Source: Eoetvoesiella caeni (GTDB taxonomy: Bacteria; Pseudomonadota; Gammaproteobacteria; Burkholderiales; Burkholderiaceae_B). From it: a stretch of 49,545 bases of DNA. How positions within the stretch are numbered: position 1 is the first letter of the stretch; the number at the start of each line of letters is the position of its first letter. The position numbers and the translations under genes are program-made. Positions 27,484 through 42,884 of the stretch are shown one piece after another. The DNA is taken from positions 1-49,545 of the forward strand of contig JBEBXF010000001.1 in the NCBI GenBank assembly GCA_040391725.1. Direction: 5' to 3'. The notes below the pieces were generated by a model that saw nothing but the letters and a program-made list of their open reading frames with translations, searched no databases and was not told where the DNA came from.

Positions 27484-28293
27484 ATGAATCACGATGAAAT
27501 CGAAGCGGCGGCCGCCGCGCTGCGCGAAGCGGCGCGCACGCGGCAATGCATCGCGCCGCTGCGCACCACCTACCCGTCATTGGCCATAGACTCGGCCTAC
27601 GCCATCCAGGCTCTCAACACGCAGCTGCGCCTCAAGGAAGAAGGCCGGCGCATCGTCGGCCGCAAGATCGGCCTGACCTCGCTGGCCGTCCAGAAGCAGT
27701 TGGGCGTGGATCAGCCCGATTTCGGCGTGCTGTTCGACGACATGGGCTACGGCGACCGCGAACCCATTCCCGCCTCGGCGCTGCTGCAGCCCAAGGTCGA
27801 AGCGGAAATCGCCTTCGTCATGGGCGCCGACCTGAACGTCGCCAATCCCGGCCAGCTCGACGTGCTCAACGCCATCGACTATGCCCTGCCCGCCATTGAA
27901 ATCGTGGGCAGCCGTATCGCCAACTGGGACATCCGCATCACCGACACCATTGCCGACAATGCGTCTTCAGGCGCCTTCGTGCTGGGCGGCACACCGCGCA
28001 AGCTGTCGGAGTTCGACCTGCACCTGTGCGGCATGGTCATGGAACATAACGGCGAGCCCGTCTCGGTGGGCGCCGGCGCGGCCTGCCTGGGCCATCCGCT
28101 GAATGCGGTCGTATGGCTGGCCCGCACCCTGGCCAGGCTCGATACCCCCTTGCGCAAGGGCGACCTGGTGCTGTCGGGCGCCCTGGGACCCATGGCGGCG
28201 GTCAAGCCTGGCGACGTCTTCGAGGCCCGCATCAATGGGCTGGGCTCGGTCGCGGCTGTTTTTGAACACGATACCAACGAGGCGCAATCATGA
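27484..28293 (+). CDS. 2-oxopent-4-enoate hydratase (DmpE/MhpD-like)
   Basis: [29 protein letters not shown] and DTIADNAS motifs. Confidence 0.88.
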
Positions 28294-29057
28294 AGGCCCT
28301 GAACGACTACGCCGTCCTGCTCGACGATGCCGCGCACCATGCCCGGGAAGTTGCCCAGTTCGACACCGAAAGCCGGCTGTCGCTGGATGACGCCTATGCC
28401 ATCCAGGCCGCCTCGATCCAGCGGCGCCTGGCGCGGGGCGAACGCCGCGTCGGCGTCAAGATGGGCTTCACCAGCCGCGCCAAGATGCTGCAGATGGGGC
28501 TTTCCGACGTTATCTGGGGCCGGCTGACCGACGCCATGCAAATCGAGGAAGGCACGTCCATCGACCTGTCGCACTATGTCCATCCGCGCGTCGAGCCCGA
28601 GCTGGCGTTCTTCCTGAAAAAGCCGCTGGCCGGCAAGGTGACCGGCCCCGAGGCGCTGGCCGCCGTCGAGGCCATCGCCCCCGCGCTGGAAATCATCGAC
28701 TCGCGCTACAAGGATTTCAAGTTCACCCTGCCCGAAGTCATTGCCGACAACGCCTCGTCCAGCAGTTTCGTCATCGGCGCCTGGCGCGATCCGGCCATCG
28801 ACTTCGGCAATCTGGGGCTTACCTTGAACATCGGCGGACGCGCCGTCCAGGTCGGTTCCACCGCCGCCCTGCTGGGCCATCCCCTGCGCTCGCTCATCGC
28901 CGCGGCACGCGTGGCGGCGCAGGCGGGCGAGCCGCTGCAGGCCGGCTGGATCGTCATGGCCGGCGGAGCCACCCCCGCCGAATGGATCAAGCCGGGGCAA
29001 TACATCTCCATCGACATGGAGCAACTGGGCCGGGCGGGTTTCCACACCCTGGACTGA
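28290..29057 (+). CDS. 4-oxalocrotonate decarboxylase (DmpH/XylI-like)
   Basis: [22 protein letters not shown] and [18 protein letters not shown] motifs. Confidence 0.88.
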
Positions 29058-29104
29058 ACAGCCCGCGCACACGGAATCACCGCGACCCAATTCTGGAGCA
29101 TTCA

Positions 29105-30064
29105 ATGAACGACAAAGTAAAGGTAGCCATCATCGGCCCCGGCAATATCGGCACCGACCTCATGATCAAGGTCATGCGCAACAGCAAGCACCTGGAAATG
29201 GGCGCCATGGTGGGCGTCGACCCCGCCTCGGACGGCCTGGCGCGCGCGCAGCGGCTGGGCGTCGCAACCACGGCCGAAGGCCTGGACGGCCTGCTCAAGC
29301 TCGACGTCTTTCCGGACATCGACATTGTGTTCGATGCCACGTCGGCGGGCGCGCATGCCCGCCACAACCAGGTGCTGCAGGAGCACGGCGTCCAGGTCAT
29401 CGACCTGACCCCCGCCGCCATCGGCCCCTACGTCATCCCGGCCATCAACCTCGAGGCCGAAAACGCCAGCAATATGAATATGGTCACCTGCGGCGGGCAG
29501 GCCACCATTCCCATGGTGGCGGCCGTATCGCGCGTGGCCAAAGTGCACTACGCCGAAATCGTCGCCTCCATCTCCAGCAAGTCGGCCGGCCCCGGCACGC
29601 GCGCCAACATCGACGAATTCACCGAAACCACGCGCAGCGCCATCGAGAAGCTGGGCGGCGCCGAACGCGGCAAGGCCGTCATCATCCTCAATCCGGCCGA
29701 ACCTCCGCTCATCATGCGCGACACGGTCTTCGTGCTGTCCGAGCTGGCAGACCAGGCCAAGGTGGAAGAAAGCATAGAGAAAATGGTGGCCACCGTGCAG
29801 GCCTACGTTCCGGGCTACCGCCTGAAGCAGCAGGTTCAATTCGACGTCATCGATCCGGCCAAGCCTCTCAATGTGCCGGGCATAGGTCTGCGCCACGGGC
29901 TGAAAACCTCGATCTACCTGGAAGTCGAAGGCGCCGCCCACTATCTGCCCTCGTACGCCGGCAACCTCGACATCATGACTTCCGCCGCCCTGGCCTGCGG
30001 CGACCTGATGGCACGCCGACGCCAGGACTCCGGCCTTTCACGCACACGCAAGGAGGCCGTGTAA
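29105..30064 (+). CDS. dmpF: Acetaldehyde dehydrogenase (acylating)
   Basis: [27 protein letters not shown] and YAGNLDIMT motifs. Confidence 0.93.
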
Positions 30065-31107
30065 TGGCCGCGAACAAAAAACTCTATATCTCCGACGTCA
30101 CCCTGCGCGACGGCAGCCACGCCATCCGTCATCAATACAGCATCGCCAACGTCGAGGCCATCGCCACCGCGCTCGACCTGGCCGGCGTCGACAGCCTGGA
30201 AGTCGCCCATGGCGACGGGCTCGAAGGCTCGAGCTTCAATTACGGCTTCGGCGCGCACAGCGACGTGGAATGGATCGAGGCCGCCGCCGAATGCGTCAAG
30301 CAGGCGAAAATCGCCACCCTGCTGCTGCCCGGCATCGGCACCACGCACGACCTGCGCCGCGCCTACGACGCGGGCGCGCGCGTCGTGCGGGTTGCCACGC
30401 ACTGCACCGAAGCGGACGTCTCGCGCCAGCATCTCGAATATGCCCGCGAACTGGGCATGGACCCGGTGGGCTTCCTGATGATGAGCCACATGACCACGCC
30501 CGCCAACCTCGCCAGACAGGCCAAGCTCATGGAAGACTACGGCGCCACCTGCGTATACGTGGTCGATTCGGGCGGCGCGCTGGGCATGAACGACGTGCGC
30601 GACCGCTTCCGCGCCTTCAAGGACGTACTCAAGCCCGAAACCCAGACCGGCATGCACGCCCACCACAACCTGAGCCTGGGCGTGGCCAACTCCATCGTGG
30701 CCGTCGAGGAAGGCTGCGACCGCATCGACGCCAGCCTGGCCGGCATGGGCGCCGGCGCCGGCAATGCACCGCTGGAAGTCTTCATTGCCGCGGCCGAACG
30801 CCTGGGCTGGAACCATGGCTGCGATCTTTACAAACTCATGGACGCCGCCGACGACCTGGTGCGCCCGCTGCAGGACAGGCCGGTGCGGGTCGATCGCGAA
30901 ACCCTGGCCCTGGGCTATGCCGGCGTGTACTCCAGCTTCTTGCGCCACGCCGAAGTCGCCGCCGCCAAATACGGCCTGAAAACCGTCGACATCCTGGTGG
31001 AACTGGGCCGGCGCAAGATGGTGGGCGGCCAGGAAGACATGATCGTCGACGTCGCGCTCGACCTGCTTGCCGCCCAACCTCCCGCAACCCAATTGAAAAC
31101 CGCATAA
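30064..31107 (+). CDS. dmpG: 4-hydroxy-2-oxovalerate aldolase
   Basis: [27 protein letters not shown] and GGQEDMI motifs. Confidence 0.93.
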
Positions 31108-31202
31108 GGAGAGCCGCCTGCCATTCAACTTTCTTTGCGACATGCTCACGGTCGATCCATCGACCATTGCAACCTAAAAATAATCGTTCCCTGGAGAAGA
31201 CA

Positions 31203-32378
31203 TTGAAAAAAGCATTACTGACGGCATTGGCCACCGCGTGCCTGGCCACGACAACCATGGCGAGCCATGCCGCCGAACCGTTCAAGATCGGCCTGATCAT
31301 CCCCATGACAGGCCCCTTCGCCTCGACCGGCAAGCAGGTCGAAGCCGGCGCCCGGCTGTACATGCAGCAGAACGGCGACAACGTGGACGGCCGCCAGATA
31401 CAGCTCATCGTCAAGGACGATGGTGGCATCCAGCCTGAAACCACCAAGCGCCTGGCTCAAGAGCTCGTCGTGCAGGAAAAGGTCAATGTGATCGCCGGCT
31501 TCGGCCTGACGCCGCTCGCCTTCGCCGCGGCGCCCATCGCCACGCAATCCAAGACGCCCATGATCGTCATGGCGGCCGGCACGTCGTCCATCATGCAGAA
31601 GTCGCCGTACATCGTCCGCACGTCCATGACACTGCCCCAGACCACCGCGCCCCTGGCCGACTGGGCCGCCAAGAACCCCAACTCCCACATCAAGTCGGTC
31701 GTGACGCTGGTGTCCGACTTCGGCCCGGGCCACGATGCCGAGAAGGTCTTCACCAAGCGCTTTACGGAAGGCGGCGGCAAGATCCTGGGCAATCTGCGCA
31801 TCCCGCAGCAGAACCCCGACTTCTCGCCGTTTCTGCAGCGCGTCAAAGACCTGAAGCCCGATGCCGTCTTCGTCTTCGTTCCCTCGGGCCAGGGCAGCAC
31901 GCTGATGAAGCAGTTCGCGCAGCGCGGGCTGGCCGCCGCGGGCATCAAGCTGATCGCCACAGGCGACGTGCTGGACGACGACCTGCTGCCCAGCATGGGC
32001 GACGAGGTGCTGGGCAGCATCACCTCCCAGCATTACTCGGCCGCCCACGACTCGCCTGAGAACAAGGCTTATGTCGCCGCACTCAGGAAGCTCACCAACA
32101 ACAGCATGCGCCCCAACTTCATGTCGGTGGGCGGCTACGACGGCATGCATCTGATCTATGCGGCGCTGAAAAAAGCCGGCCCCAATGCCACGGGCGACCA
32201 GCTTCTGGCCGCCATGAAGGGCGCCAGTTGGATGAGCCCGCGCGGCCCGGTCAGCATCGATCCTGAAACCCGCGACATCATCCAGAACGTGTATATCCGC
32301 AAAGCCGAAAGGGTCAACGGCGAAATCTACAACGTGGAATTCGACAAGATCGAGCACTTCAAGGATCCAGGCGTCTAA
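31203..32378 (+). CDS. Periplasmic substrate-binding protein (branched-chain/aromatic-acid type)
   Basis: TTG start after GGAGAAG; signal peptide; FKIGLIIPMTGPFA and SPRGP motifs. Confidence 0.88.
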   Translation: MKKALLTALATACLATTTMASHAAEPFKIGLIIPMTGPFASTGKQVEAGARLYMQQNGDNVDGRQIQLIVKDDGGIQPETTKRLAQELVVQEKVNVIAGFGLTPLAFAAAPIATQSKTPMIVMAAGTSSIMQKSPYIVRTSMTLPQTTAPLADWAAKNPNSHIKSVVTLVSDFGPGHDAEKVFTKRFTEGGGKILGNLRIPQQNPDFSPFLQRVKDLKPDAVFVFVPSGQGSTLMKQFAQRGLAAAGIKLIATGDVLDDDLLPSMGDEVLGSITSQHYSAAHDSPENKAYVAALRKLTNNSMRPNFMSVGGYDGMHLIYAALKKAGPNATGDQLLAAMKGASWMSPRGPVSIDPETRDIIQNVYIRKAERVNGEIYNVEFDKIEHFKDPGV

Positions 32379-32404
32379 ACCTGCTTCCCATCGCGTCCCG
32401 CCGG

Positions 32405-33094
32405 CTATTTATTGCCTTTGCGGGACGCGCCGAGCGCCGCCTGCGGCAGGGCGCGCCGGCCGGTCACATGCACGACGTCATCGTCAGGCGCCGCGCCTTC
32501 GGCATTCACGAAGCCGCGCAAAAGGCGCAGGAATGGCTCCTGCTCGTCCGGCGCAAGGCGGGCAAGCAACTGGTTCTTCATGTTCTGGATGCCGCTTTGC
32601 ATGCCTTGCAGCACCTCTTTGCCAGTACGGGTCAGGGACAAACGCCGCTGACGGCGTTTTTCTATATAAAGCTCGCGCACGATCAGGCCCTTGGCCTCGA
32701 GCCGAACCGCGGTTTCGGCCGTGGTCGAGTTGTCCAGAGCCACCAGTTTGGCCAGCGTTACCTGGTCGATACCGGGGTTTTCATCCAGCGCCACCAGCAA
32801 GGCGTATTGCAGCGGCGTCAGGCTGTCGCGGCCGACATTGTCGTAGAACGACGCCACCACGATCTGCTGGGCGCGGCGCAGCAAATGCCCCGGATGGTCA
32901 TTCAATTCATGGGGGATCCGCTGCGCGGCGGCTTCGGGCGCCCCCGCGTCCGACTGGCCGGTCGTTCCCGGCGCCATCGGCAGCCCCCGGCGGCTCTTGG
33001 ACTGCTTGCCTGCCTCACCGGTTGCCTTGCCCTTGCCCGCGCCGCCGCGACTGTCTTCTTTTGCTGTATTCCTGGATCGGGCGGTCATGGGCAT
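32405..33094 (-). CDS. MarR family regulator (PcaV/MobR-like) with an N-terminal extension
   Basis: PGHLLRRAQQ, LTPLQYA and IDQ.TLA..VALD.ST....RLE.KGL motifs; start uncertain. Confidence 0.85.
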   Translation of the reverse strand: MPMTARSRNTAKEDSRGGAGKGKATGEAGKQSKSRRGLPMAPGTTGQSDAGAPEAAAQRIPHELNDHPGHLLRRAQQIVVASFYDNVGRDSLTPLQYALLVALDENPGIDQVTLAKLVALDNSTTAETAVRLEAKGLIVRELYIEKRRQRRLSLTRTGKEVLQGMQSGIQNMKNQLLARLAPDEQEPFLRLLRGFVNAEGAAPDDDVVHVTGRRALPQAALGASRKGNK

Positions 33095-33125
33095 AGGACG
33101 GCTTGCTTGTGAAATGACGAGGTTG

Positions 33126-34160
33126 CTATGACATGGCGGGAGCGCGCTCGCGCTGTTCATCAGCCACCATGGCCTGCAGCACGCGCCGCCCGCGTATGGG
33201 GCCGCTATCGACGGTAATGGCGGTCTGGACGGGATTATCGCATTCATCGGGGGTCAGCGCCGACTGCTGCAGTTCGACCACCACCTTGTCCTCGTTGTGC
33301 GTGGCGCCCACGGCTTCCTGGATATAGCGTGTCAGGAATTCGTCGTCCTGGCGGAAATTGCGCACGAAGGCCCAGAAATAATGCGTGGAACTCGCGGTTT
33401 CGGGCGTGGCCAGATGCATGACGCAGCCCGTGATCTCGCCCAGGCCGTCGCCCTCGTGCAGCGCCCGGCAGCCGACCTCGATCACGCAGATCGACGGCGC
33501 ATGGTAATTGACCGTATGCCAGCGATGGATGGGCTTGGTGTATTTGCCCAGGTAGGTGTAGAACGGCGGCGCCATGGCGCCCACGACGTCCCGATGCACG
33601 CGAACGACACTGCCCTGCTGGGACACTTCGATGGGCGACTCGGCCACCGCCGCATTGCCGATGGTGCGGCCATGCACAAAGGCCACATGCGAAAGATCGA
33701 GCAGGTTGTCGTTGAGCAGGCGGTAGTCGGCCTGCAAATGGCAATAACCCTGGCTGGGGATCCACTCGGGGTTATCCAGCCGGCTCATGTCCGGCACAAG
33801 AGCGGGATCGGCCTGCTCGGGATCGCCCATCCATATCCATAACAGCCGGTCGCGCTCGATAACGGGAAACGACCGGACACAGGCGGAAGCGGGGATTTTT
33901 TCCTGGCCCGGGATGCGCGTGCACTGCCCTTGCCCATTGAACGCCATGCCGTGGTACCCGCAAACGACCTGGTCGTTTTCCACGTAGCCGAAGGAAAGCG
34001 GCAGCCGCCGGTGGGCGCAGCGGTCTTCCAGCGCGGCGACGGTATCGTCGCCGCGGCGATACAGCACAACGGCTTTTCCCAGGAATTTGCGGGCCAGCAG
34101 CCCGCCTTGGACTTCGGAAGAAAAAGCCGCCACATACCAAGCATTTTCAGGCCACATCAT
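33126..34160 (-). CDS. Rieske non-heme iron oxygenase (VanA/TsaM/DdmC-like monooxygenase or O-demethylase)
   Basis: CAH...CGYHG Rieske motif; DNLLDLSHVAFVH and NED mononuclear Fe ligands. Confidence 0.9.
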   Translation of the reverse strand: MMWPENAWYVAAFSSEVQGGLLARKFLGKAVVLYRRGDDTVAALEDRCAHRRLPLSFGYVENDQVVCGYHGMAFNGQGQCTRIPGQEKIPASACVRSFPVIERDRLLWIWMGDPEQADPALVPDMSRLDNPEWIPSQGYCHLQADYRLLNDNLLDLSHVAFVHGRTIGNAAVAESPIEVSQQGSVVRVHRDVVGAMAPPFYTYLGKYTKPIHRWHTVNYHAPSICVIEVGCRALHEGDGLGEITGCVMHLATPETASSTHYFWAFVRNFRQDDEFLTRYIQEAVGATHNEDKVVVELQQSALTPDECDNPVQTAITVDSGPIRGRRVLQAMVADEQRERAPAMS

Positions 34161-34711: not shown

Positions 34712-35038
34712 CTAGAAGGCGTCGACCTTCCATTCGTAATCGACGGCCACTTCGCCCAGAATGCGCAGGCGTTCGTCGGCGCCCTTTTCCAGCGCTTCCT
34801 GCAGCCGCTTGTTGAAGCCTTCCAATGTAGACTTGGCGCGATCCGCGAAGTCGGGATCGACGGCCTGGTCTTCGTACTTGATGACGTAGGTCTGCGCCGC
34901 CACGCCCACCACGAAATACAGGCCGGCGTTTTGCGGATCGGACTTCATGAGGTTGAACGCTTCTTTGTAGAAGACCTTGAATGAGTCGCTCCCCGACTCT
35001 GAACGCTCAAAACGTTGCGCGATTTCTTTAAACGTCAT
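34712..35038 (-). CDS. Hypothetical alpha-helical protein
   Basis: 108 aa with host-like codon usage and normal composition; no family recognised. Confidence 0.7.
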   Translation of the reverse strand: MTFKEIAQRFERSESGSDSFKVFYKEAFNLMKSDPQNAGLYFVVGVAAQTYVIKYEDQAVDPDFADRAKSTLEGFNKRLQEALEKGADERLRILGEVAVDYEWKVDAF

Positions 35039-35219: not shown

Positions 35220-36122
35220 TCAAAGCCTGGCCAGCAGTTGACGCAGGTGGGCGGCGCCCGTCTTGCCTTTGTACGCTCCTTTCCAAAGCCTGGAAATCAT
35301 TCCCTCGTACACTTTCAGCGCCTCGGGCGCCGCGGTGATCGTGGCGATGCCATTGCGCACATTGGGCAACGCCCCCATGTGAAAAGGGCTGACCGCCAAT
35401 ATCTTGTGCTTCGCTCCGACGAAGATCTGGTAGGTCGAGGACGGCATGGAATCGTCGACCAGGCCGATCTGCACGTTCAAAGGCTCGCTTTCCATGAGGT
35501 CGGCCATGCGGCTCACCTCGTGGCGCGCGGCTTTGCGGCGTTCGGTGCGTACGCTCGCAGGCAGGTTGGTGCGCCCCACCAGGCCGATTTGCATGAAATG
35601 CTCGAGCTCTTGCAGACCGATCAGGCTCAGTACGTGGGGATGGCGTTCTTCGAATGAATGCTTGCGCTCGATGATGAGCCGGATGACCTCATCGACCTCT
35701 TTGGACTTGAGCACCCCGCCGACCTGGGCCGGCGTGGCTTCAAGCAGCATGGTGCGCAGATGCTCCAGATAGCTGTCGGACGTGAGCAGCAGGGAGATGG
35801 GCTCGAAATGCGCGAAAATACGCTCCGATGCCCGCTCGATTTGATGCATGCGCTCGAAAAAGCCCCAGGCGTTGGCGTAGTATTCGACCTCGACGCCCAG
35901 CAGCGAGGCAATGGAGGTGCCCAGCAAATGGGCCAGCCGCTCGAGCATTTCGATCTTGACGATCTCGCCCTTTTCCATGCGATAGACCGCCGCGCGCGAA
36001 ACGCCAAGGCGCTCGGCGACGTCTTCGGCCTGCAGCGACGCGCCGATGCGGTAGGCGCGCAGGCGGTCGCCCAAAGACACATAGTCCACCGACGACTTGA
36101 ATCTTTTGATACTGGCGTCCAT
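35220..36122 (-). CDS. XRE family HTH regulator with a large C-terminal domain
   Basis: LGDRLRAYR...VAERLGVSRAAVYRMEKG HTH. Confidence 0.88.
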   Translation of the reverse strand: MDASIKRFKSSVDYVSLGDRLRAYRIGASLQAEDVAERLGVSRAAVYRMEKGEIVKIEMLERLAHLLGTSIASLLGVEVEYYANAWGFFERMHQIERASERIFAHFEPISLLLTSDSYLEHLRTMLLEATPAQVGGVLKSKEVDEVIRLIIERKHSFEERHPHVLSLIGLQELEHFMQIGLVGRTNLPASVRTERRKAARHEVSRMADLMESEPLNVQIGLVDDSMPSSTYQIFVGAKHKILAVSPFHMGALPNVRNGIATITAAPEALKVYEGMISRLWKGAYKGKTGAAHLRQLLARL

Positions 36123-36171
36123 TTTCCCTTACCACCCTTCTTTCTTGTTTGACCGCACAGGCGCCAGGCCG

Positions 36172-36855
36172 CTATTTATCGTAATGGTATGCCGTGATGC
36201 CGCCATGGGCTTGCGACCAGCCGGCCGGATCATCCAGGAATTCGGACAATTCCTTCAGTGCCGCGCCATCCAGGCGGCCCTGCTCGCGCGCCACGGCAAG
36301 CACGTCGCGCCAGGTGGCCAGCGCATGCACGCGCAGCTTCAAGGCGTCCAGAATATGGCGGTTGGGAAATGCCGCATAATCGAAAACCACGAATAAATCT
36401 TCCACGATCGCGCCGGCGGCGGCAAGCGCCTTGCAGAACGCCACCTTGGACTGGCCCGCGGCCATCAGGTCGTCCACCATCAGCACCTTGTCGCCCGGCT
36501 TGACCACACCCACGATGCGGGTCTGCCCCGCCTGCTTCTTGCGCACGTACTCCAGCGGCAGATCGAGCGCCTCGGCCATCCAGGCCGCCAGCGCAATACC
36601 GCTGGCCTCGCCGCCTGCCACCGAAACCACGCCCTGCAGGGCGCCCTGCTCTCGCAGCAGGCGCAGGCCTCGGGAAACCAGGTCGCGGCGCACCGCGGGA
36701 AAGGAAATGAGGCGGCGGCAATCCATATACACGGGACTGGCCCATCCGGACGGCAGCCGGAAGGGTTCGTCCCGGCGCGCCATGACGCAACCGGTATCGA
36801 ACAGCGCCGCGGCAACCGCGCGGCCGCATTCACTCGGCGAGTAGGCGTCTGTCAT
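36172..36855 (-). CDS. pyrE: Orotate phosphoribosyltransferase-like protein with divergent active-site loops
   Basis: F.LPSGWASPVYMDCR, AGGE..GI and YVRK motifs; PRPP loop reads VDDLMAAGQS. Confidence 0.8.
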   Translation of the reverse strand: MTDAYSPSECGRAVAAALFDTGCVMARRDEPFRLPSGWASPVYMDCRRLISFPAVRRDLVSRGLRLLREQGALQGVVSVAGGEASGIALAAWMAEALDLPLEYVRKKQAGQTRIVGVVKPGDKVLMVDDLMAAGQSKVAFCKALAAAGAIVEDLFVVFDYAAFPNRHILDALKLRVHALATWRDVLAVAREQGRLDGAALKELSEFLDDPAGWSQAHGGITAYHYDK

Positions 36856-36857
36856 GA

Positions 36858-38309
36858 TCAGGAGTTCTCCTTGGGCGCGGCGGCGGGAAGCTCGGCGCCG
36901 GCATGTTTGTCGTAGGCCCAGGGCTGGGTCAGGACTTCATGACGCAAGGCCTGGTCGAGCTGAACCTGCGTCATCAGCTTGCGCGCCAGCACCACCTCGC
37001 GCACGCTCGTGCCCTTGGCGTAGGCCTCGGCCGCCACCGACGTCGCCGCCTCATAGCCGATGTAGGGGTTCAAGGCCGTGACCAGGGAAATCGAGTTTTC
37101 CATGTTGGAAAGCAGCTTCTCGCGATTGGCCGTAATGCCCTTGATGCACAGATCGGCCAGGGTGTAGCAGCCGCTGGTCAGGTACTTGAAGCTGCGGAAC
37201 AGGGCGTGGGTGATGATGGGCTCGAAGGCATTGAGCTGCAATTGCCCGCCCTCGGCGGCGAAGGTGACGGTCAGGTCGTTGCCGAACACTTCGAAGGCTA
37301 TCTGGTTGACCACTTCGGGGATGACCGGGTTGACCTTGCCCGGCATGATCGATGAGCCGGCCTGCATGGGCGGCAGGTTGATTTCGCCGAAGCCCGCTCG
37401 CGGGCCGCTGGACAGCAGGCGCAAGTCGTTGCATATTTTGGACAGCTTGACGGCAATGCGCTTGAGCACCCCCGACAACTGCACGAAGGCGCCGCAGTCC
37501 TGCGTGGCCTCGATCAGGTTCGGCGCCGTGATCAGCTCGATGCCCGTAATGCGTTTCAGGGCTTCCAGCGCCTTGGCCGCGTAGGCGGGGTGCGCGGTAA
37601 TGCCGGTGCCGATGGCCGTCGCGCCAAGATTGATTTCGTGGATGAGCAGCTCGGCCTCGCGCAGGCGGGCCATGTCTTCTTCCAGCATCAAGGCATACGT
37701 GGAAAACTCCTGTCCCAGCGTCATGGGCACGGCGTCCTGCAACTGCGTGCGGCCTATCTTGAGCATGTCGGCGAACTCCAGGGCCTTGGCCGCGAACTCG
37801 CCGCGCAAATGCTCCATGGCTTCCAGCAGGCGGTGAATGCCCAGGCAGGTGGCGATGCGTATGGCCGTGGGATACACGTCGTTCGTGCTTTGCGCCATGT
37901 TCACATCCTCGTTCGGATGCAGGTATTGATATTCGCCGCGCTGATGGCCCATGATTTCCAGCGCCCGGTTGCAGATGACCTCGTTGGCATTCATATTGGT
38001 GGAAGTTCCCGCCCCGCCCTGAATGACGTCGACCACGAACTGGTCTTCCAGGGCGCCCTGGCGGATTTCCTCGCAGGCCGCCACAATGGCCTTGTATTTG
38101 TCGGCCGGCAGCAGCCCCAGGCCGTAATTGGCCTCGGCCGCGGCCTCTTTGACGGCGGCCAGCGCGAAAACCAGTTGCGGATACGCCGATACCGGAATGC
38201 CCGAGATCTGGAAGTTCTCTTTGGCTCGTAGCGTATGCACCCCGTAATACACATCGGCGGGAACCTCACGGTTTCCGAGTAAATCGTGTTCGGTACGAAA
38301 CAGCTTCAT
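36858..38309 (-). CDS. aspA: Aspartate ammonia-lyase
   Basis: YYGVHTLRA.ENF, QGGAGTSTNMN, GRTQLQDA and GSSIMPGKVNPV motifs. Confidence 0.93.
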   Translation of the reverse strand: MKLFRTEHDLLGNREVPADVYYGVHTLRAKENFQISGIPVSAYPQLVFALAAVKEAAAEANYGLGLLPADKYKAIVAACEEIRQGALEDQFVVDVIQGGAGTSTNMNANEVICNRALEIMGHQRGEYQYLHPNEDVNMAQSTNDVYPTAIRIATCLGIHRLLEAMEHLRGEFAAKALEFADMLKIGRTQLQDAVPMTLGQEFSTYALMLEEDMARLREAELLIHEINLGATAIGTGITAHPAYAAKALEALKRITGIELITAPNLIEATQDCGAFVQLSGVLKRIAVKLSKICNDLRLLSSGPRAGFGEINLPPMQAGSSIMPGKVNPVIPEVVNQIAFEVFGNDLTVTFAAEGGQLQLNAFEPIITHALFRSFKYLTSGCYTLADLCIKGITANREKLLSNMENSISLVTALNPYIGYEAATSVAAEAYAKGTSVREVVLARKLMTQVQLDQALRHEVLTQPWAYDKHAGAELPAAAPKENS

Positions 38310-38366
38310 ATATCCTCTTGTCCGATTAGGGCCTGTCAATGTTGAAAAGGGCCGCATGAACCGGCC

Positions 38367-39662
38367 CTATCCGCCTTTCGCGCTGGCTGGCGCCGCCGCC
38401 TTGGCCTGCGGCAGCTCGTCGAGCGCATCGCTCAAAACTTGAACCCCCAGCATGAAGTCATCGATTTCCATGGCTTCCTGGGGATTATGCGACCCGTTCT
38501 GGTTGCGCACAAACAGCATGCCGCTTGGAATGCCGGCATTGGCGAACAGCGACGCGTCGTGGCCGGCCCCGCTGGGAATCACCTCGAAAGGAACGTTCTC
38601 TTGGGAGCAGGCGTTCGACAACACCTTGCAGATGCCGTCGTCCATGGTCGCCGGTTCGCTGAGCAGGCGGCGATCGAACTCGAAGCGCACACCGCGTTCA
38701 CGGCTGATTGCCGTGCACTCGGCGCGCATCAGTTGATAAAACGCCTCCAGCGTATCGGTGCTTTTGCTACGGGCCTCGATACTGAAGTTTACTCGCCCCG
38801 GAATGCGGGAAATGGAATGCTCGGCCGGATCGGTATTGACCACGCCGGCGGTCACCACCAGATCGGTGCCCCGCTCGAGCAAGACACGCCAGTGCTCGTC
38901 CAGGCGCATGATGAGATCGGCCACCGCGAACATGGCGTCGTGCCGCAGCCAGCGCGGCACCACGCCCGAATGCTGGGCATCGCCCAGGCAGACGATATGA
39001 TTGTGGCGGATATTGCCGCGTATGCCCGAAACCACGGCCAAGGGCAATTCGCGCGCCACCATCACCGGCCCCTGCTCGATGTGCACTTCCAGATAGGCCT
39101 TGACGCGGGACGTGTCGAACAGCACCTCGCCGGCGCGCACGGCGGCCACGTCGGCCCCGGCCTTTTCCATGTACTCGGCCAGCGTGGCCCCCGTGGCGCG
39201 TTGAGTCAGGGCCAGGTCGGCCTCGCTCAATTTGCCCAGCAAGGCGCTGGAACCCATATAGGCCTTGCCGAACCAGGCGCTTTCTTCGCCCCGGAACGCC
39301 ACGGTTTCCAACGGCAATGCATCGTCGCGGCCTTCGCGCTGGCGCGCGATGAGGCACAGCAGCCCGGCCACGACACCAGCCAGGCCATCGTAATTGCCGC
39401 CCTGGGGCACCGAATCGATGTGCGAGCCCACCCAGGCCACGGCGTCGGCGTCCTTGGTGCCGGGGCGGCGGAACACCAGATTGGCGGCGCGGTCGGCCTC
39501 GACTTCCAGCCCCTCGGAAAGCGCCAGCTCGCGCAGGTAGTCGCCGGCGGCGGATTCGCCTTTGCCAAAGCTTTCACGCGTGACGCCCACACCGTCGAAC
39601 GTCAGTTCGCGCACGTCGGCGAAGATTTTTTCCGCCAGAGACCGAAACTGAAGAAGATCCAT
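38367..39662 (-). CDS. N-carbamoyl-amino-acid amidohydrolase (hydantoinase/carbamoylase, M20 Zn-hydrolase)
   Basis: GSHIDSVPQGGNYDG.AGV, GEES, EVHIEQGP, SGAGHDA and SHNP.E motifs. Confidence 0.9.
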   Translation of the reverse strand: MDLLQFRSLAEKIFADVRELTFDGVGVTRESFGKGESAAGDYLRELALSEGLEVEADRAANLVFRRPGTKDADAVAWVGSHIDSVPQGGNYDGLAGVVAGLLCLIARQREGRDDALPLETVAFRGEESAWFGKAYMGSSALLGKLSEADLALTQRATGATLAEYMEKAGADVAAVRAGEVLFDTSRVKAYLEVHIEQGPVMVARELPLAVVSGIRGNIRHNHIVCLGDAQHSGVVPRWLRHDAMFAVADLIMRLDEHWRVLLERGTDLVVTAGVVNTDPAEHSISRIPGRVNFSIEARSKSTDTLEAFYQLMRAECTAISRERGVRFEFDRRLLSEPATMDDGICKVLSNACSQENVPFEVIPSGAGHDASLFANAGIPSGMLFVRNQNGSHNPQEAMEIDDFMLGVQVLSDALDELPQAKAAAPASAKGG

Positions 39663-39674
39663 GATGACGGTTCC

Positions 39675-40625
39675 CTAACCCGACTGCTGGGCAAAGCGGA
39701 GCCAGCGATCCGACAATTGACGATCCAGCTTGACCTGGCCGGTCAGGGCGTGGATGTCCTCGACACCCATTTCCTGGCACAAGCCGTGCAGGCCGTCGAT
39801 GATCTTCTGCATGATGCCCGGATCGATGAACGACGCCGTGCCGACCTGAACCGCGCTGGCGCCCGCCAGCATGAACTCCATCACGTCCTCGGCCGTGCGG
39901 ATGCCGCCGCAGCCGATGATGGGAATGCGCACGCTGCGATAGCATTGATGCACCATCCGCACGGCAATCGGCTTGATGGCCGGGCCCGAAAGGCCGCCCA
40001 TGACATTGCCCAGCTTGGGCTTGCGGGTGCGCACGTCGATCGACATGCCCAGCATGGTGTTGCCCATGACGATGGCGTCGGCGCCCGCTTCCTCGGCGGC
40101 CTTGGCCACCGCCGCCACATTCGAGGCATTGGGCGTCAGCTTGGCCCAGAACGGATGATGGGTGCTGCGGCGTATGGCGCTGACCACCCTGTAGGTGGAA
40201 TCCACGTCCATGGCGAAGGCCATGCCGTCCGCCTCCAGGTTAGGGCAGGAAATATTGGCCTCGATCACCGCCACTTCGGGCAGCGACATGGTCGCCACGG
40301 CCTCGGCGAATTCATCGACCGTATCGGCCGAAATGGAAACGACGACCGGGGTGCCGAACTTGGTATAGGGCGGCAGCACCTTGCTGCGGTAGTAATCCAG
40401 CCCTTTGCTGGGAATGCCTATGGAATTGAGCATGCCGCTGGGCGTTTCCGCCACGCGCGGCGTGGGGTTGCCGGCGCGGCTTTTGGGGGAGACGCTTTTG
40501 ATGACCAAGGCGCCCAGATTGCCGAAATCCAGCGCCTCGCTGTATTCGATGGCAAAGCAGCCCGACGCGGGCATGACGGGGTTGCGCAAGCATAGGTCGC
40601 CCACCCTGACTTTAAGATTAGCCAA
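39675..40625 (-). CDS. pyrD: Dihydroorotate dehydrogenase family 1B, catalytic subunit
   Basis: NPVMPASG, GNPTPR, NISCPN (catalytic Cys), KLTPN and GGLSGPAIKP motifs; TTG start overlaps the pyrK stop region. Confidence 0.9.
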   Translation of the reverse strand: MANLKVRVGDLCLRNPVMPASGCFAIEYSEALDFGNLGALVIKSVSPKSRAGNPTPRVAETPSGMLNSIGIPSKGLDYYRSKVLPPYTKFGTPVVVSISADTVDEFAEAVATMSLPEVAVIEANISCPNLEADGMAFAMDVDSTYRVVSAIRRSTHHPFWAKLTPNASNVAAVAKAAEEAGADAIVMGNTMLGMSIDVRTRKPKLGNVMGGLSGPAIKPIAVRMVHQCYRSVRIPIIGCGGIRTAEDVMEFMLAGASAVQVGTASFIDPGIMQKIIDGLHGLCQEMGVEDIHALTGQVKLDRQLSDRWLRFAQQSG

Positions 40626-41466
40626 ACTCCACCTCCCCAACCACGTCGCGTATGGAAAACACCGGGCCTTCGCGGCATACGCGCAGAAACTGCTTGTCGC
40701 CCTCGATATCGAACATGCGGACACAGGACAGGCACACGCCCATGCCGCAAGCCATGCGCTGTTCCATGGCCACCTCGCCCCGCGTTTGCGGGTAGTCCTG
40801 CAGCACGCGCTGCAACAGCATGAGCAGCCGGTGCGAACCACAGGTGTAGACGACGTCATGGGGGTTTTCGTCGAGCAGGCGGCGCACCAGCGCTTCCACG
40901 GCTTCGACCGACGACGTGCCGTCGCTGTCGTAGACGCAATGCACCTGGGCGGGCGCGCCCCGCAGGAATTCGTCGCGCATCAAGTCCTTGGGCTCGCGGG
41001 CCGACATGATGGCGGTGATCTCGATGCCCGCGCCGGCCGCGTATTGCAGCAACGGGGCCATGGTGGCCAACCCGACGCCGCGCGCCAGAACCAGGATGCG
41101 CTTGAACTGAGGCTCCAGGACGAAGGTGTTGCCCAGCGGGCCGACGATTTCCATGGAATCGCCCACCCCTAGGGAGGACATGGCCAGGGTGCCCACGCCC
41201 GTTACGTTGTACAGGAATTCGATGGTGCCGGGCTCGGGGCCGACCCCATACACGCTCATGGGGCGCAGCAGAAACGGCTGCTGCGTATCGGTAACCGGGC
41301 ACTTAAGCTGATAAAACTGACCCGGGCGGGTAGCCGCCGCCAGGTCGGACTGCGCCGAAAGACGCAAATACTTGTATCTATCATTCACCCAGCGATGCTC
41401 GACGACCTCGCACCGATGGGATGCCACGTTCTCCGCGTTCCGATGAAAACAAGCCTTATCGGTCAT
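40618..41466 (-). CDS. pyrK: Dihydroorotate dehydrogenase electron-transfer subunit (FAD/[2Fe-2S])
   Basis: PGQF, RPMS, GPLGN.F and EQRMACGMGVCLSC...VCREGPVF motifs. Confidence 0.9.
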   Translation of the reverse strand: MTDKACFHRNAENVASHRCEVVEHRWVNDRYKYLRLSAQSDLAAATRPGQFYQLKCPVTDTQQPFLLRPMSVYGVGPEPGTIEFLYNVTGVGTLAMSSLGVGDSMEIVGPLGNTFVLEPQFKRILVLARGVGLATMAPLLQYAAGAGIEITAIMSAREPKDLMRDEFLRGAPAQVHCVYDSDGTSSVEAVEALVRRLLDENPHDVVYTCGSHRLLMLLQRVLQDYPQTRGEVAMEQRMACGMGVCLSCVRMFDIEGDKQFLRVCREGPVFSIRDVVGEVEFG

Positions 41467-41533
41467 GGAGTTTCCTCACTCAAAAATACAGCCGCCGGAA
41501 GGCGGAAGCCCTCCGGCATTGGACAAGACAGCT

Positions 41534-42775
41534 TTACTCCAGTTCCACGCCCTTGAGCTCGGGAATCAGGAATATGGTTGCAATCATGTCGATGACATAG
41601 ATGGCGGCCAGCAGGGCGATGGCCGTGTGGAACGAATACATGGCAGCCAGTCCGCCCACCACGACGGGCCCGAAGCCGCCGACGGCCCGGCCGATATTGA
41701 ACAGCGTGTTTTGCGCCGTGCCGCGTGCTTCGGTGGGATAGGCTTCGGACATCAATGCGCCGTAGCCGCCCAGCATGCCGTTCACGAACACGCCCATCAA
41801 GGCGCCGCACCACAGCATGGTGATGGGGTCGGTCAGGCGCGAGTAGACCAGCACCATGATGACCGCGCCGGCCTGGAACAGCAGGAAGCTGGGCTTGCGG
41901 CCGATACGGTCGGCCAGTTGGCCGAACACCCAGATGCCGATGGCCATGCCGATGATGGTCACCGATGTCCAGACCGCCGATTTGGTCAGGTTGAAGCCCA
42001 TTTGCTTGGCCAGGTAGCTGGGCATCCAGATCATGATGCCGTAATAGCCGAAGTTCTGCACCGAGCACAAAATGGCGATGCCGATGCTGACCTTGGTGGT
42101 CTTGGCATCTTTGACCAGCAGCTTGAATGCACGGCTATTGCCCTTTTTCTCGACGCTGCGCACGAAGACTTCGGGCTCATGCAGGCGGCTGCGGACAAAC
42201 CAGGCAACCAGCGCGGGCAGGACACCCACGATGAACATGCCGCGCCAGCCAATGTGCGGCAGCAGCAGCGGCGTGACGATGGCGGCGGCCAGCACGCCCG
42301 CTTGCCAGCCCAGGGCCACATACGACGACACGCGGCCGCGCTGCTTGGCGGGCCAGGCTTCGGCGGCCAGCGCCATGCCGATGCCGAACTCGCCGCCCAG
42401 GCCGATACCGGCGATGGTCCGGTACACCAGCAGATCCCAGTAGCCCTGCGCGAACGCGCACAAGCCGGTGAAGACGGCAAACAGGACGATGGTCCAGGTC
42501 AGAACCCGCACCCGGCCGTAGTAATCGCTGAGCGCCCCGAAGACGAGGCCGCCGACGACGGCGCCGATGAGAGTCCAGGTAACCAGCGAACCCGCCTGGC
42601 CCGGCCCCAAGTGCAGGTCGGCCGAAATGGCGGCCAGCATGAAACCGAGGATCAGCAGGTCGAAACCATCCATGGCATAGCCAAGGGTGGAGCCCGCCAG
42701 CGCTTTCCAGCCGTAGCTGGTGACTTTATCGGGATTGGCGGTCATGCTTGCCGCCGAAGTTGTTCTAGCTTCCAC
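41534..42775 (-). CDS. MFS transporter (aromatic acid/sialate:H+ symporter-like)
   Basis: GYAMDGFD, SDYYGR, GIGLGGEFG, ADRIGRK and EAYPT.ARG motifs. Confidence 0.88.
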   Translation of the reverse strand: MEARTTSAASMTANPDKVTSYGWKALAGSTLGYAMDGFDLLILGFMLAAISADLHLGPGQAGSLVTWTLIGAVVGGLVFGALSDYYGRVRVLTWTIVLFAVFTGLCAFAQGYWDLLVYRTIAGIGLGGEFGIGMALAAEAWPAKQRGRVSSYVALGWQAGVLAAAIVTPLLLPHIGWRGMFIVGVLPALVAWFVRSRLHEPEVFVRSVEKKGNSRAFKLLVKDAKTTKVSIGIAILCSVQNFGYYGIMIWMPSYLAKQMGFNLTKSAVWTSVTIIGMAIGIWVFGQLADRIGRKPSFLLFQAGAVIMVLVYSRLTDPITMLWCGALMGVFVNGMLGGYGALMSEAYPTEARGTAQNTLFNIGRAVGGFGPVVVGGLAAMYSFHTAIALLAAIYVIDMIATIFLIPELKGVELE

Positions 42776-42866
42776 TTTTTATTGCTCCTGTGATAGATGC
42801 TTGTTTAGCCGCCGCACGCCCGGCAGACAGAGACTTCCGGAACAGCTTTGTATATATTTCGATCTT

Positions 42867-42884
42867 AATCTTATTTTTGAGATT
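42867..42884. promoter_or_regulatory. Imperfect palindrome in the AT-rich promoter of the pyr-like operon
   Basis: AATCTTA-TTTT-TGAGATT. Confidence 0.4.

What the first reader, a model, noticed from the sequence alone, without database searches (positions are those of the whole stretch)
35220..42775. Candidate reductive orotate catabolic operon built from repurposed pyrimidine biosynthesis genes
Seen: seven co-directional, closely spaced genes: MFS, pyrK, pyrD (family 1B), carbamoylase, aspA, pyrE-like, XRE. There is no pyrB, carAB or pyrF. Known: family 1B PyrDK is NAD-linked and can reduce orotate, whereas betaproteobacteria normally biosynthesise with the quinone-linked family 2 PyrD. Reductive orotate degradation (orotate to dihydroorotate to N-carbamoyl-aspartate to aspartate + NH3 + CO2) was described biochemically in Clostridium (Zymobacterium) oroticum. 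AspA converts aspartate to fumarate + NH3. Inference: this is an uptake-plus-degradation module that runs pyrimidine biosynthesis backwards, releasing both ring nitrogens and feeding fumarate into the TCA cycle. It would be distinct from the rut and pyd uracil pathways, and I know of no genetic description of it in an aerobic proteobacterium.
Basis: partly seen in the sequence, partly recalled or inferred. Interest (0 to 1): 0.88.

Follow-up and report, generated by a model that had tools for sequence, protein, structure and literature searches.

The report
Orotate uptake and breakdown operon
A row of eight genes that stays together across many proteobacteria, and sits beside lactose genes on Klebsiella plasmids, likely imports the pyrimidine precursor orotate and likely breaks it down to aspartate, ammonia and CO2, which would supply genes for a pathway known mainly from old enzyme work.

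Summary
The seven genes are real and intact. An eighth (108 aa) and a tandem palindromic operator belong with them. The genome keeps separate housekeeping pyrD (family 2), pyrE and pyrC. Among 39 close loci, pyrK and the carbamoylase occur in 38, the XRE regulator in 36, dihydroorotase in 12 and aspA in only 15, so the core ends at aspartate. The best substrate evidence: where a TRAP importer replaces the MFS, its binding protein's best PDB match by far is 4NN3, which was solved with orotic acid. 27 of 31 loci anchored on that protein carry pyrK-pyrD-carbamoylase. The PyrE-like protein lacks the catalytic Lys103 equivalent in 34 of 34 betaproteobacterial-type loci yet is under purifying selection, so it is probably not an ordinary salvage enzyme. 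The cluster lies beside lacYZ in 49 of 53 Klebsiella plasmid records (one inherited block). Reductive orotate catabolism: about 80%, untested at the bench. Ten literature searches found no genetic description, but the key 2015 TRAP paper was not readable. This scan noted the same pathway before on other DNA.

The parts
42849..42884 (-). Tandem palindromic operator (two ~18-bp sites, consensus AGT(A/C)TC-N6-GA(T/G)ACT); predicted binding site of the XRE regulator
   Evidence: Leave-one-out PWM score 22.6-48.4 in 29 of 31 upstream regions, against shuffle maxima of at most 10.6. Weak in L049, absent in L038 (left out of training), which lacks XRE. Only clear site in G000. Also found in Klebsiella L167 and absent from XRE-less L168.
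41534..42775 (-). MFS transporter (aromatic acid:H+ symport-like), likely orotate importer
   Evidence: Present in 32 of 39 close loci; replaced by a 4NN3-like TRAP system in L045 and L070.
40618..41466 (-). PyrK, FAD/[2Fe-2S] electron-transfer subunit
   Evidence: PF10418. Cys240, 245, 248 and 264 invariant in 84 of 84 homologue hits.
39675..40625 (-). PyrD family 1B, likely working as NADH-dependent orotate reductase
   Evidence: TIGR01037 and PRK07259 above cut-off. Best PDB matches are class 1B enzymes 5ue9 and 1ep1. K43, N124, C127, K162 and N189 in 81 of 81; N67 and N129 in 77 of 81.
38367..39662 (-). M20 carbamoylase, candidate ureidosuccinase (N-carbamoyl-L-aspartate amidohydrolase, EC 3.5.1.7)
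   Evidence: TIGR01879 above cut-off, every characterised equivalog below. H81, D92, E126, E127, H194 and H392 in 70 of 70; R215, R219 and R298 in 70 of 70; R286 in 68 of 70.
36858..38309 (-). Aspartate ammonia-lyase AspA (accessory)
   Evidence: TIGR00839 above cut-off. Present in 15 of 39 close loci.
36172..36855 (-). PyrE-like protein of the alphaproteobacterial type, lacking the Lys103 equivalent and with a shortened catalytic loop; likely a weak or dead enzyme with a binding or regulatory role
   Evidence: Alignment to 4ohc. No Lys at that position in 34 of 34 loci, loop 3 residues short in 27 of 34. dN/dS 0.06-0.32 against 5 relatives.
35220..36122 (-). XRE helix-turn-helix regulator with a predicted PLD/TrmB-like C-terminal domain, likely the effector-binding domain
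   Evidence: HTH_3 and HTH_31. Model pLDDT 85.5. Match to the TrmB sugar-binding domain 2f5t: Z 11.1, rmsd 3.1, 129 aligned; nucleases of the same fold score as high or higher. Present in 36 of 39 loci.
34712..35038 (-). Conserved 108-aa helical protein of unknown family, eighth member of the cluster
   Evidence: In 34 of 39 close loci and on the Klebsiella plasmids. dN/dS 0.03-0.10. No Pfam or NCBIfam match. Only generic helical-bundle matches.

Best explanation
The cluster is likely an inducible unit for using orotate: the MFS likely imports orotate, PyrK-PyrD(1B) would reduce it with NADH to dihydroorotate, a dihydroorotase would open the ring, and the M20 carbamoylase would likely release aspartate, NH3 and CO2. 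The dihydroorotase is the housekeeping PyrC here (G000:C170) and a cluster-borne copy in 12 of 39 relatives. AspA, where present, would take aspartate on to fumarate and a second NH3. The irreversible carbamoylase step would pull the reversible steps in the catabolic direction. It would also destroy biosynthetic carbamoyl-aspartate, so the XRE protein is predicted to repress the operon at the tandem operator until orotate or an intermediate is present. Shown: gene identities, catalytic residues, synteny, separate housekeeping copies, operator conservation, and homology of the alternative importer to an orotate-bound protein. Inferred: substrate of the MFS and the carbamoylase, direction of flux, induction, and the roles of the PyrE-like and 108-aa proteins.
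For: (1) Housekeeping family-2 pyrD, pyrE and pyrC lie elsewhere in G000. Family-2 pyrD is also found in 5 of 5 further genomes, a second pyrE in 5 of 5 relatives, and pyrC outside the cluster in 3 of 3 relatives whose cluster lacks it. (2) Synteny in 39 close loci: pyrK 38, carbamoylase 38, XRE 36, PyrE-like 35, small gene 34, MFS 32, aspA 15, pyrC 12 (loci chosen by pyrD; two contigs truncated). 3 of 3 gap ORFs scanned pass TIGR00856. (3) The TRAP binding proteins of L070 and L045 match 4NN3 at 2e-132 and 1.5e-115, with the next hits at 3e-51 and 2e-46; 4NN3 is bound to orotic acid (PMC11668362, passages). 27 of 31 loci anchored on this protein, each with at least 6 kb downstream, hold pyrK, pyrD and the carbamoylase. 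(4) PyrD keeps the class-1B orotate site and fails the PreA model, 126 against 335 bits. (5) The carbamoylase has extra invariant arginines near the substrate site, compatible with a dicarboxylate (inference). (6) The operator tracks the XRE gene in two natural losses, L038 and L168. (7) The cluster is linked to lacYZ on Klebsiella plasmids, 9 of 53 listed from milk; orotate is abundant in ruminant milk (own knowledge).
Against: No growth, induction or enzyme data. The window's own cluster has no dihydroorotase, nor do 27 of 39 close loci. The orotate evidence comes from the TRAP protein of relatives, not from this MFS, whose PDB matches are uninformative. The same PyrDK clade occurs without the carbamoylase in 5 of 12 fetched regions (L078, L080-L082, L084), several beside Mo-hydroxylase-like or hydantoinase-like genes (names read from the translations). 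DHODH-like proteins have turned out to act on other substrates, such as fungal dihydrouracil oxidases (PMC10395836, passages). 4 of 31 TRAP-anchored loci lack the enzymes. No carbamoylase homologue was found at E <= 1e-70 in 300 genomes of the class of G102, so nothing ties this enzyme to the C. oroticum one. The resident family-2 PyrD would re-oxidise dihydroorotate and compete with the pathway (inference). The Klebsiella records are at least 98.9% identical, so they count as one event, and the background share of milk isolates was not measured.
Confidence: 0.8

Rival explanations
1. The cluster is the lower half of a pathway for another heterocycle or nucleoside (orotidine, or a pyrimidine carboxylate oxidised by a Mo-hydroxylase). 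The MFS would import that compound, with orotate only an intermediate or a close analogue the true substrate.
For: PyrDK and XRE relatives sit beside Mo-hydroxylase-like genes (L077, L080, L081, L084) or hydantoinase-like genes (L078). An Agrobacterium plasmid pairs the enzymes with an ABC importer and a nucleoside phosphorylase.
Against: No such upstream enzyme recurs in the clustering of ORFs from the 42 loci. The alternative importer is of the orotate-bound type.
Confidence: 0.1
2. Salvage or backup biosynthesis: the MFS imports orotate for PyrE, and NAD-linked PyrDK replaces the quinone-linked enzyme at low oxygen. The carbamoylase would only dispose of excess carbamoyl-aspartate.
For: In three alphaproteobacterial genomes the cluster's pyrE keeps Lys103 and is the only pyrE found. 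Orotate salvage through DctA and PyrE is known in enterobacteria (PMC13328217, passages).
Against: The betaproteobacterial PyrE-like protein lacks Lys103 in 34 of 34 loci, a residue essential in E. coli (PMC10087573, passages). The Klebsiella block has no pyrE at all. The carbamoylase is the most constant partner (38 of 39) and would work against synthesis.
Confidence: 0.06
3. Overflow or detoxification valve: the genes remove excess internal orotate, dihydroorotate or carbamoyl-aspartate, and the MFS exports rather than imports.
For: MFS direction is not readable from sequence. The resident pathway supplies these intermediates.
Against: Relatives use TRAP or ABC systems with binding proteins, which are importers. 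The patchy distribution (10 of 101 relatives) fits a nutrient module.
Confidence: 0.04

Closest known systems
Reductive orotate degradation of Clostridium (Zymobacterium) oroticum: orotate reductase (NADH) EC 1.3.1.14, dihydroorotase, ureidosuccinase EC 3.5.1.7 (pathway and EC numbers recalled; class 1B status of the C. oroticum enzyme from Table 1 of PMC10395836)
   Same: Class 1B PyrDK, dihydroorotase and a carbamoyl-removing hydrolase in the order needed to reach aspartate, NH3 and CO2.
   Different: Here it is a gene cluster with importer, regulator and operator in aerobic proteobacteria. No sequence link to the clostridial enzymes could be made: no carbamoylase hit in 300 genomes of the class of G102.
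Reductive uracil/thymine pathway (PydA/PreA-PreT, dihydropyrimidinase, beta-ureidopropionase PydC)
   Same: Same three chemical steps (reduce, open the ring, decarbamoylate) and an M20 carbamoylase.
   Different: The reductase is a PyrK-partnered DHODH with the orotate site, not PreA (126 against 335 bits). The ring-opener is a type II dihydroorotase. The product would be aspartate, not beta-alanine.
De novo pyr operon with class 1B pyrK-pyrD (Bacillus/Lactococcus type; L072 as example)
   Same: pyrK-pyrD pair, and often pyrC and pyrE.
   Different: No pyrB, carAB or pyrF. It has an importer, a carbamoylase and AspA. Separate housekeeping genes exist. PyrD falls in its own clade of 84 rows (SH-aLRT 99, quick tree, long branches flagged).
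Orotate-binding TRAP solute-binding protein 4NN3 of Maridesulfovibrio salexigens (PMC11668362; from Vetting et al. 2015, not read)
   Same: Close homologues head the same cluster in 27 of 31 loci.
   Different: The window uses an MFS instead. Whether Vetting et al. discussed the neighbouring enzymes could not be checked.
PyrR/PurR-type phosphoribosyltransferase-fold regulators (recalled)
   Same: A PRT fold kept without normal catalysis, next to pyrimidine genes.
   Different: Derived from alphaproteobacterial PyrE, with no DNA- or RNA-binding part seen. A regulatory role is not shown.

Membership tests
Dihydroorotate dehydrogenase class 1B | Family-1 PyrD sequence above the curated cut-off | tested here: met
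   TIGR01037 326 against 270; PRK07259 366 against 269
Dihydroorotate dehydrogenase class 1B | Catalytic Cys, orotate-binding Asn residues and FMN-binding Lys (roles recalled) | tested here: met
   Aligned to 1ep1 and 5ue9; C127, N124, N189, K43 and K162 in 81 of 81; N67 and N129 in 77 of 81
Dihydroorotate dehydrogenase class 1B | Adjacent PyrK with four [2Fe-2S] cysteines | tested here: met
   PF10418; four Cys in 84 of 84. The PyrK equivalog cut-offs are not reached, 121 against 219.
Dihydroorotate dehydrogenase class 1B | NAD(H)-linked orotate/dihydroorotate turnover | not testable with these tools
   Needs purified enzyme
Dihydropyrimidine dehydrogenase PreA/PydA | PreA model score, C-terminal ferredoxin extension, PreT partner | tested here: not met
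   NF006183 126 against 335 bits; 316-aa protein; partner is PyrK
M20 hydantoinase/carbamoylase family | Family score and di-zinc ligands with catalytic Glu | tested here: met
   TIGR01879 279.5 against 204; ligands in 70 of 70
Characterised carbamoylases (AllC, ErtE and other equivalogs) | Equivalog cut-off | tested here: not met
   AllC 208 against 598; ErtE 288 against 520; best PDB match 3n5f at 1e-54
Ureidosuccinase EC 3.5.1.7 | Hydrolyses N-carbamoyl-L-aspartate to aspartate, NH3 and CO2 | not testable with these tools
   No reference sequence found; defined by activity only
Orotate phosphoribosyltransferase PyrE | Catalytic loop with Lys103 (E. coli numbering) | tested here: not met
   Ala in the window; no Lys in 34 of 34 loci; role of Lys103 from PMC10087573
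Orotate phosphoribosyltransferase PyrE | PRT fold, orotate hood and acidic pair of the PRPP motif | tested here: met
   1e-49 to 4ohc; SGWASPVY hood, R105-K106 and D129-D130 kept
Aspartate ammonia-lyase AspA | TIGR00839 above cut-off and better than FumC | tested here: met
   684.1 against 681.2; FumC model 489 against 665
De novo pyrimidine operon | Holds the cell's only pyrD/pyrE, with pyrB, carAB and pyrF | tested here: not met
   Housekeeping copies on C154, C45 and C170; pyrB, carAB and pyrF not seen among the ORFs
TrmB-type effector-binding domain | PLD-like fold used for ligand binding | tested here: inconclusive
   Z 11.1 to 2f5t, but nucleases of the same fold score 11.3-12.5

The most novel reading that the evidence does not exclude
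This is the missing genetic definition of reductive orotate catabolism. The carbamoylase is the gene for ureidosuccinase, the MFS is a new orotate permease family, and the XRE-TrmB-like protein is an orotate-responsive repressor with a defined operator. A catalytically dead PyrE serves as a sensor or a brake on salvage. The Klebsiella copy beside lacYZ is a milk-nutrient island (lactose plus orotate).
Probability: 0.45. Interest if true: 0.85.

Novelty: new variant of a known kind. Interest (0 to 1): 0.7.

Why it matters
If true, it assigns genes to a pyrimidine degradation route known from mid-century enzymology and names a candidate sequence for ureidosuccinase. It adds a third bacterial route beside the rut and pyd uracil pathways. 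It also corrects the annotation of many accessory pyrD, pyrC and pyrE copies as biosynthetic. It is directly testable in cultured non-pathogenic strains (Eoetvoesiella caeni DSM 25520, Pusillimonas noertemannii DSM 10065, Variovorax defluvii JCM 17804). The lac linkage offers a concrete hypothesis for what some Klebsiella plasmids contribute in milk.

Tried and rejected
Complex prediction of XRE with the PyrE-like protein: no answer, score 0.00, no evidence either way. The 108-aa protein: no Pfam or NCBIfam family; only hypothetical clusters in the Atlas; 52 unnamed or hypothetical homologues; a single-sequence model at pLDDT 67 matched only generic helical bundles, best Z 9.7. It is tied to neither neighbour: it is kept without XRE in L038 and without PyrE-like in L062 and L071. 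The MFS has no informative PDB relative. The sigma-70 scan found no promoter-like site on the operon strand, and terminator-like sites were not above chance, 6 against 7.4 expected. Four activated-sludge RNA runs of one study hold contigs of a related strain (mostly 90-95% alike) over most of the cluster; contigs cannot show transcription or level, so I draw nothing from them. No carbamoylase homologue at E <= 1e-70 in 300 genomes of the class of G102, with one genome not scored. No match to the Klebsiella block in 5,426 E. coli genomes. Vetting et al. 2015 is not held. Literature searches gave no genetic description of bacterial orotate catabolism. I considered the Thr-to-Ala change in the PRPP loop as proof of inactivity and rejected it, because active xanthine PRTases have a similar motif (recalled). 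The careful tree did not finish; only the quick tree was used.
Full report
Observation. The seven genes are present, intact and co-directional on the minus strand: MFS 42775-41534, pyrK 41466-40618, pyrD 40625-39675, carbamoylase 39662-38367, aspA 38309-36858, pyrE-like 36855-36172 and XRE 36122-35220. PyrD, AspA and the carbamoylase pass curated cut-offs; PyrK and the PyrE-like protein match their models below cut-off. GC content is like the flanks, 0.59-0.66. The genome is a 58.8% complete assembly. Its PyrD is 98% identical to that of a record titled Eoetvoesiella sp., which points to the Alcaligenaceae.

The cluster is accessory. G000 has a quinone-linked family-2 pyrD on C154 and a standard pyrE on C45, and a type II pyrC on C170. 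Family-2 pyrD was found in 5 of 5 further genomes tested, a second pyrE in 5 of 5 relatives, and pyrC outside the cluster in 3 of 3 relatives tested. The class 1B PyrD is patchy: 10 of 101 relatives including G000, and 8 of 351 genomes of the class of G101 at E <= 1e-55.

Synteny. Of 42 loci found with PyrD, three distant ones (41-45% identity, L072-L074) lie in other contexts and were left out of the count. In the other 39, two on truncated contigs, pyrK and the carbamoylase occur in 38, XRE in 36, PyrE-like in 35, a 108-aa gene in 34, the MFS in 32, aspA in 15 and a dihydroorotase in 12. The three dihydroorotases scanned, two from these loci and one from a Klebsiella plasmid, all pass TIGR00856. 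So the step missing in the window is supplied in the cluster by many relatives, and aspA is an add-on. The 108-aa gene at 35038-34712 is an eighth member of unknown function.

Substrate. In L070 and L045 a TRAP system stands where the MFS stands here. Both binding proteins match PDB 4NN3 far better than anything else (2e-132 against 3e-51; 1.5e-115 against 2e-46). PMC11668362 (passages) states that 4NN3 is bound to orotic acid, and PMC5812351 (passages) lists orotic acid among the TRAP ligands found by Vetting et al. 2015. Starting from that binding protein gave 80 metagenome loci. Of these, 31 had at least 6 kb downstream, and 27 of the 31 carry pyrK, pyrD and the carbamoylase, 17 pyrC and 1 aspA; 4 carry none of the enzymes. 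PyrD keeps the class 1B active site and fails the uracil-type PreA model. The carbamoylase keeps its metal ligands in 70 of 70 homologue hits and has invariant R215, R219 and R298 and near-invariant R286. Against the L-carbamoylase 3n5f, R215, R219 and R286 are additions, which fits a second carboxylate such as that of carbamoyl-aspartate; this is inference.

Regulation. Upstream of the MFS, 29 of 31 regions carry a tandem palindrome with leave-one-out scores of 22.6-48.4 against shuffle maxima of at most 10.6. L049 is weak. L038, which I left out of training, has none, and its cluster and genome (G753, completeness not given) lack the XRE gene. L168 likewise lacks both XRE and motif within 15 kb, while the Klebsiella locus has both. 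The window's site (42884-42849) is the only clear one in G000. The XRE model (pLDDT 85.5) has a C-terminal PLD-like fold shared with TrmB effector domains and with nucleases. Effector binding is inferred.

The PyrE-like protein. It descends from the alphaproteobacterial PyrE type. It lacks the Lys103 equivalent in 34 of 34 betaproteobacterial-type loci, and the loop is three residues short in 27 of them. Lys103 is essential in E. coli (PMC10087573, passages). In three genomes where the cluster copy is the only pyrE found (G101, G431, G249; completeness not given) the lysine is kept. In G053 and G333, where it is lost, a second match exists, weak in G333. dN/dS of 0.06-0.32 against five relatives shows the gene is still selected. 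The simplest history is that the module sat next to housekeeping pyrC-pyrE, and the pyrE copy lost catalysis once redundant. Its present role is open, and it is dispensable (absent in L062, L071 and Klebsiella).

Plasmids. The carbamoylase matches 74 plasmid records, 53 of them Klebsiella. In the four Klebsiella records opened the order is MFS, pyrK, pyrD, carbamoylase, pyrC, XRE, small gene, then lacY-lacZ. 49 records hold at least 80% of that 13-kb block, at 98.9% identity or more, and 9 of the 53 are labelled as from milk. Orotate is abundant in ruminant milk (own knowledge), so the link is suggestive. It is one inherited block, most records are clinical, and no background rate was measured.

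Mechanism. Orotate enters by the MFS. PyrDK reduces it with NADH, the favoured direction on redox potentials (own knowledge). PyrC opens the ring. The carbamoylase irreversibly gives aspartate, NH3 and CO2, and AspA gives fumarate and a second NH3. XRE keeps the operon off, which would protect de novo synthesis. Confidence 0.8.

Against this reading: there are no bench data. The same PyrDK clade occurs without the carbamoylase in 5 of 12 fetched regions. DHODH-like proteins can have other substrates (PMC10395836, passages). No homologue was found in 300 genomes of the class of G102. The resident family-2 PyrD would compete for dihydroorotate.

Novelty. The chemistry is known from C. oroticum and, as I recall without having read the papers, from aerobic soil bacteria in the 1950s-60s. 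Ten searches found no genetic description. Section 5 of PMC4016543 on dehydrogenase families does not describe this cluster, and the passages of a 2026 review mention only salvage of orotate. The library lacks most subscription papers, and Vetting et al. 2015 with its supplements could not be read and may bear on priority. Five earlier notes of this scan describe the same or related clusters on other DNA; they are not independent support. Verdict: new variant of a known kind, interest 0.7.

Noticed in passing
L167:8561-21555 (NZ_CP050823.1) and 48 further plasmid records: The Klebsiella plasmid copy of the cluster lies directly beside lacYZ; 9 of 53 records are from milk. A 421-aa hypothetical protein without a Pfam match follows the MFS.
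   Followed up: partly
L077, L078, L080, L081, L084: PyrK-PyrD of the same clade, mostly with the same XRE, beside Mo-hydroxylase-like or hydantoinase-like genes and mostly without the carbamoylase; possibly pathways that feed other heterocycles into orotate (names read from the translations).
   Followed up: no
L085:9405-14121 and L086:3948-7617: A second, distinct class 1B pyrK-pyrD pair in two Alcaligenaceae relatives, with an M20-like gene, a GntR-like regulator and, in L085, an asparaginase-like gene (names recalled from motifs).
   Followed up: no
G000:C22:2866-3936 (L003:1447-2517): A further DHODH-like protein in the same genome, closest to family 2 but below all cut-offs, with Cys in the active-site loop.
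   Followed up: no
L172:3603-11608 (Agrobacterium plasmid pAt1): pyrK-pyrD-carbamoylase divergent from an ABC importer and a nucleoside phosphorylase, which suggests an orotidine-using variant.
   Followed up: no
window 41493-41518: GC-rich hairpin with a T-rich tail between the MFS and pyrK (z -2.4; 5 of 200 shuffles as good); possible partial terminator or RNA-stabilising element.
   Followed up: partly
window 27484-34160: Aromatic catabolism genes next door: meta-cleavage lower-pathway enzymes (names recalled from the translations), a binding protein, a MarR-like regulator and a VanA-type Rieske oxygenase. Not conserved with the cluster.
   Followed up: no
L071:7530-14343: The Leclercia copy has frameshifts in several genes, perhaps sequencing errors.
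   Followed up: no
L063:6993-9039: A Polaromonas locus has, in place of the MFS, a gene resembling 4,5-dihydroxyphthalate decarboxylase (recalled) and a tricarboxylate-type binding protein before pyrK.
   Followed up: no
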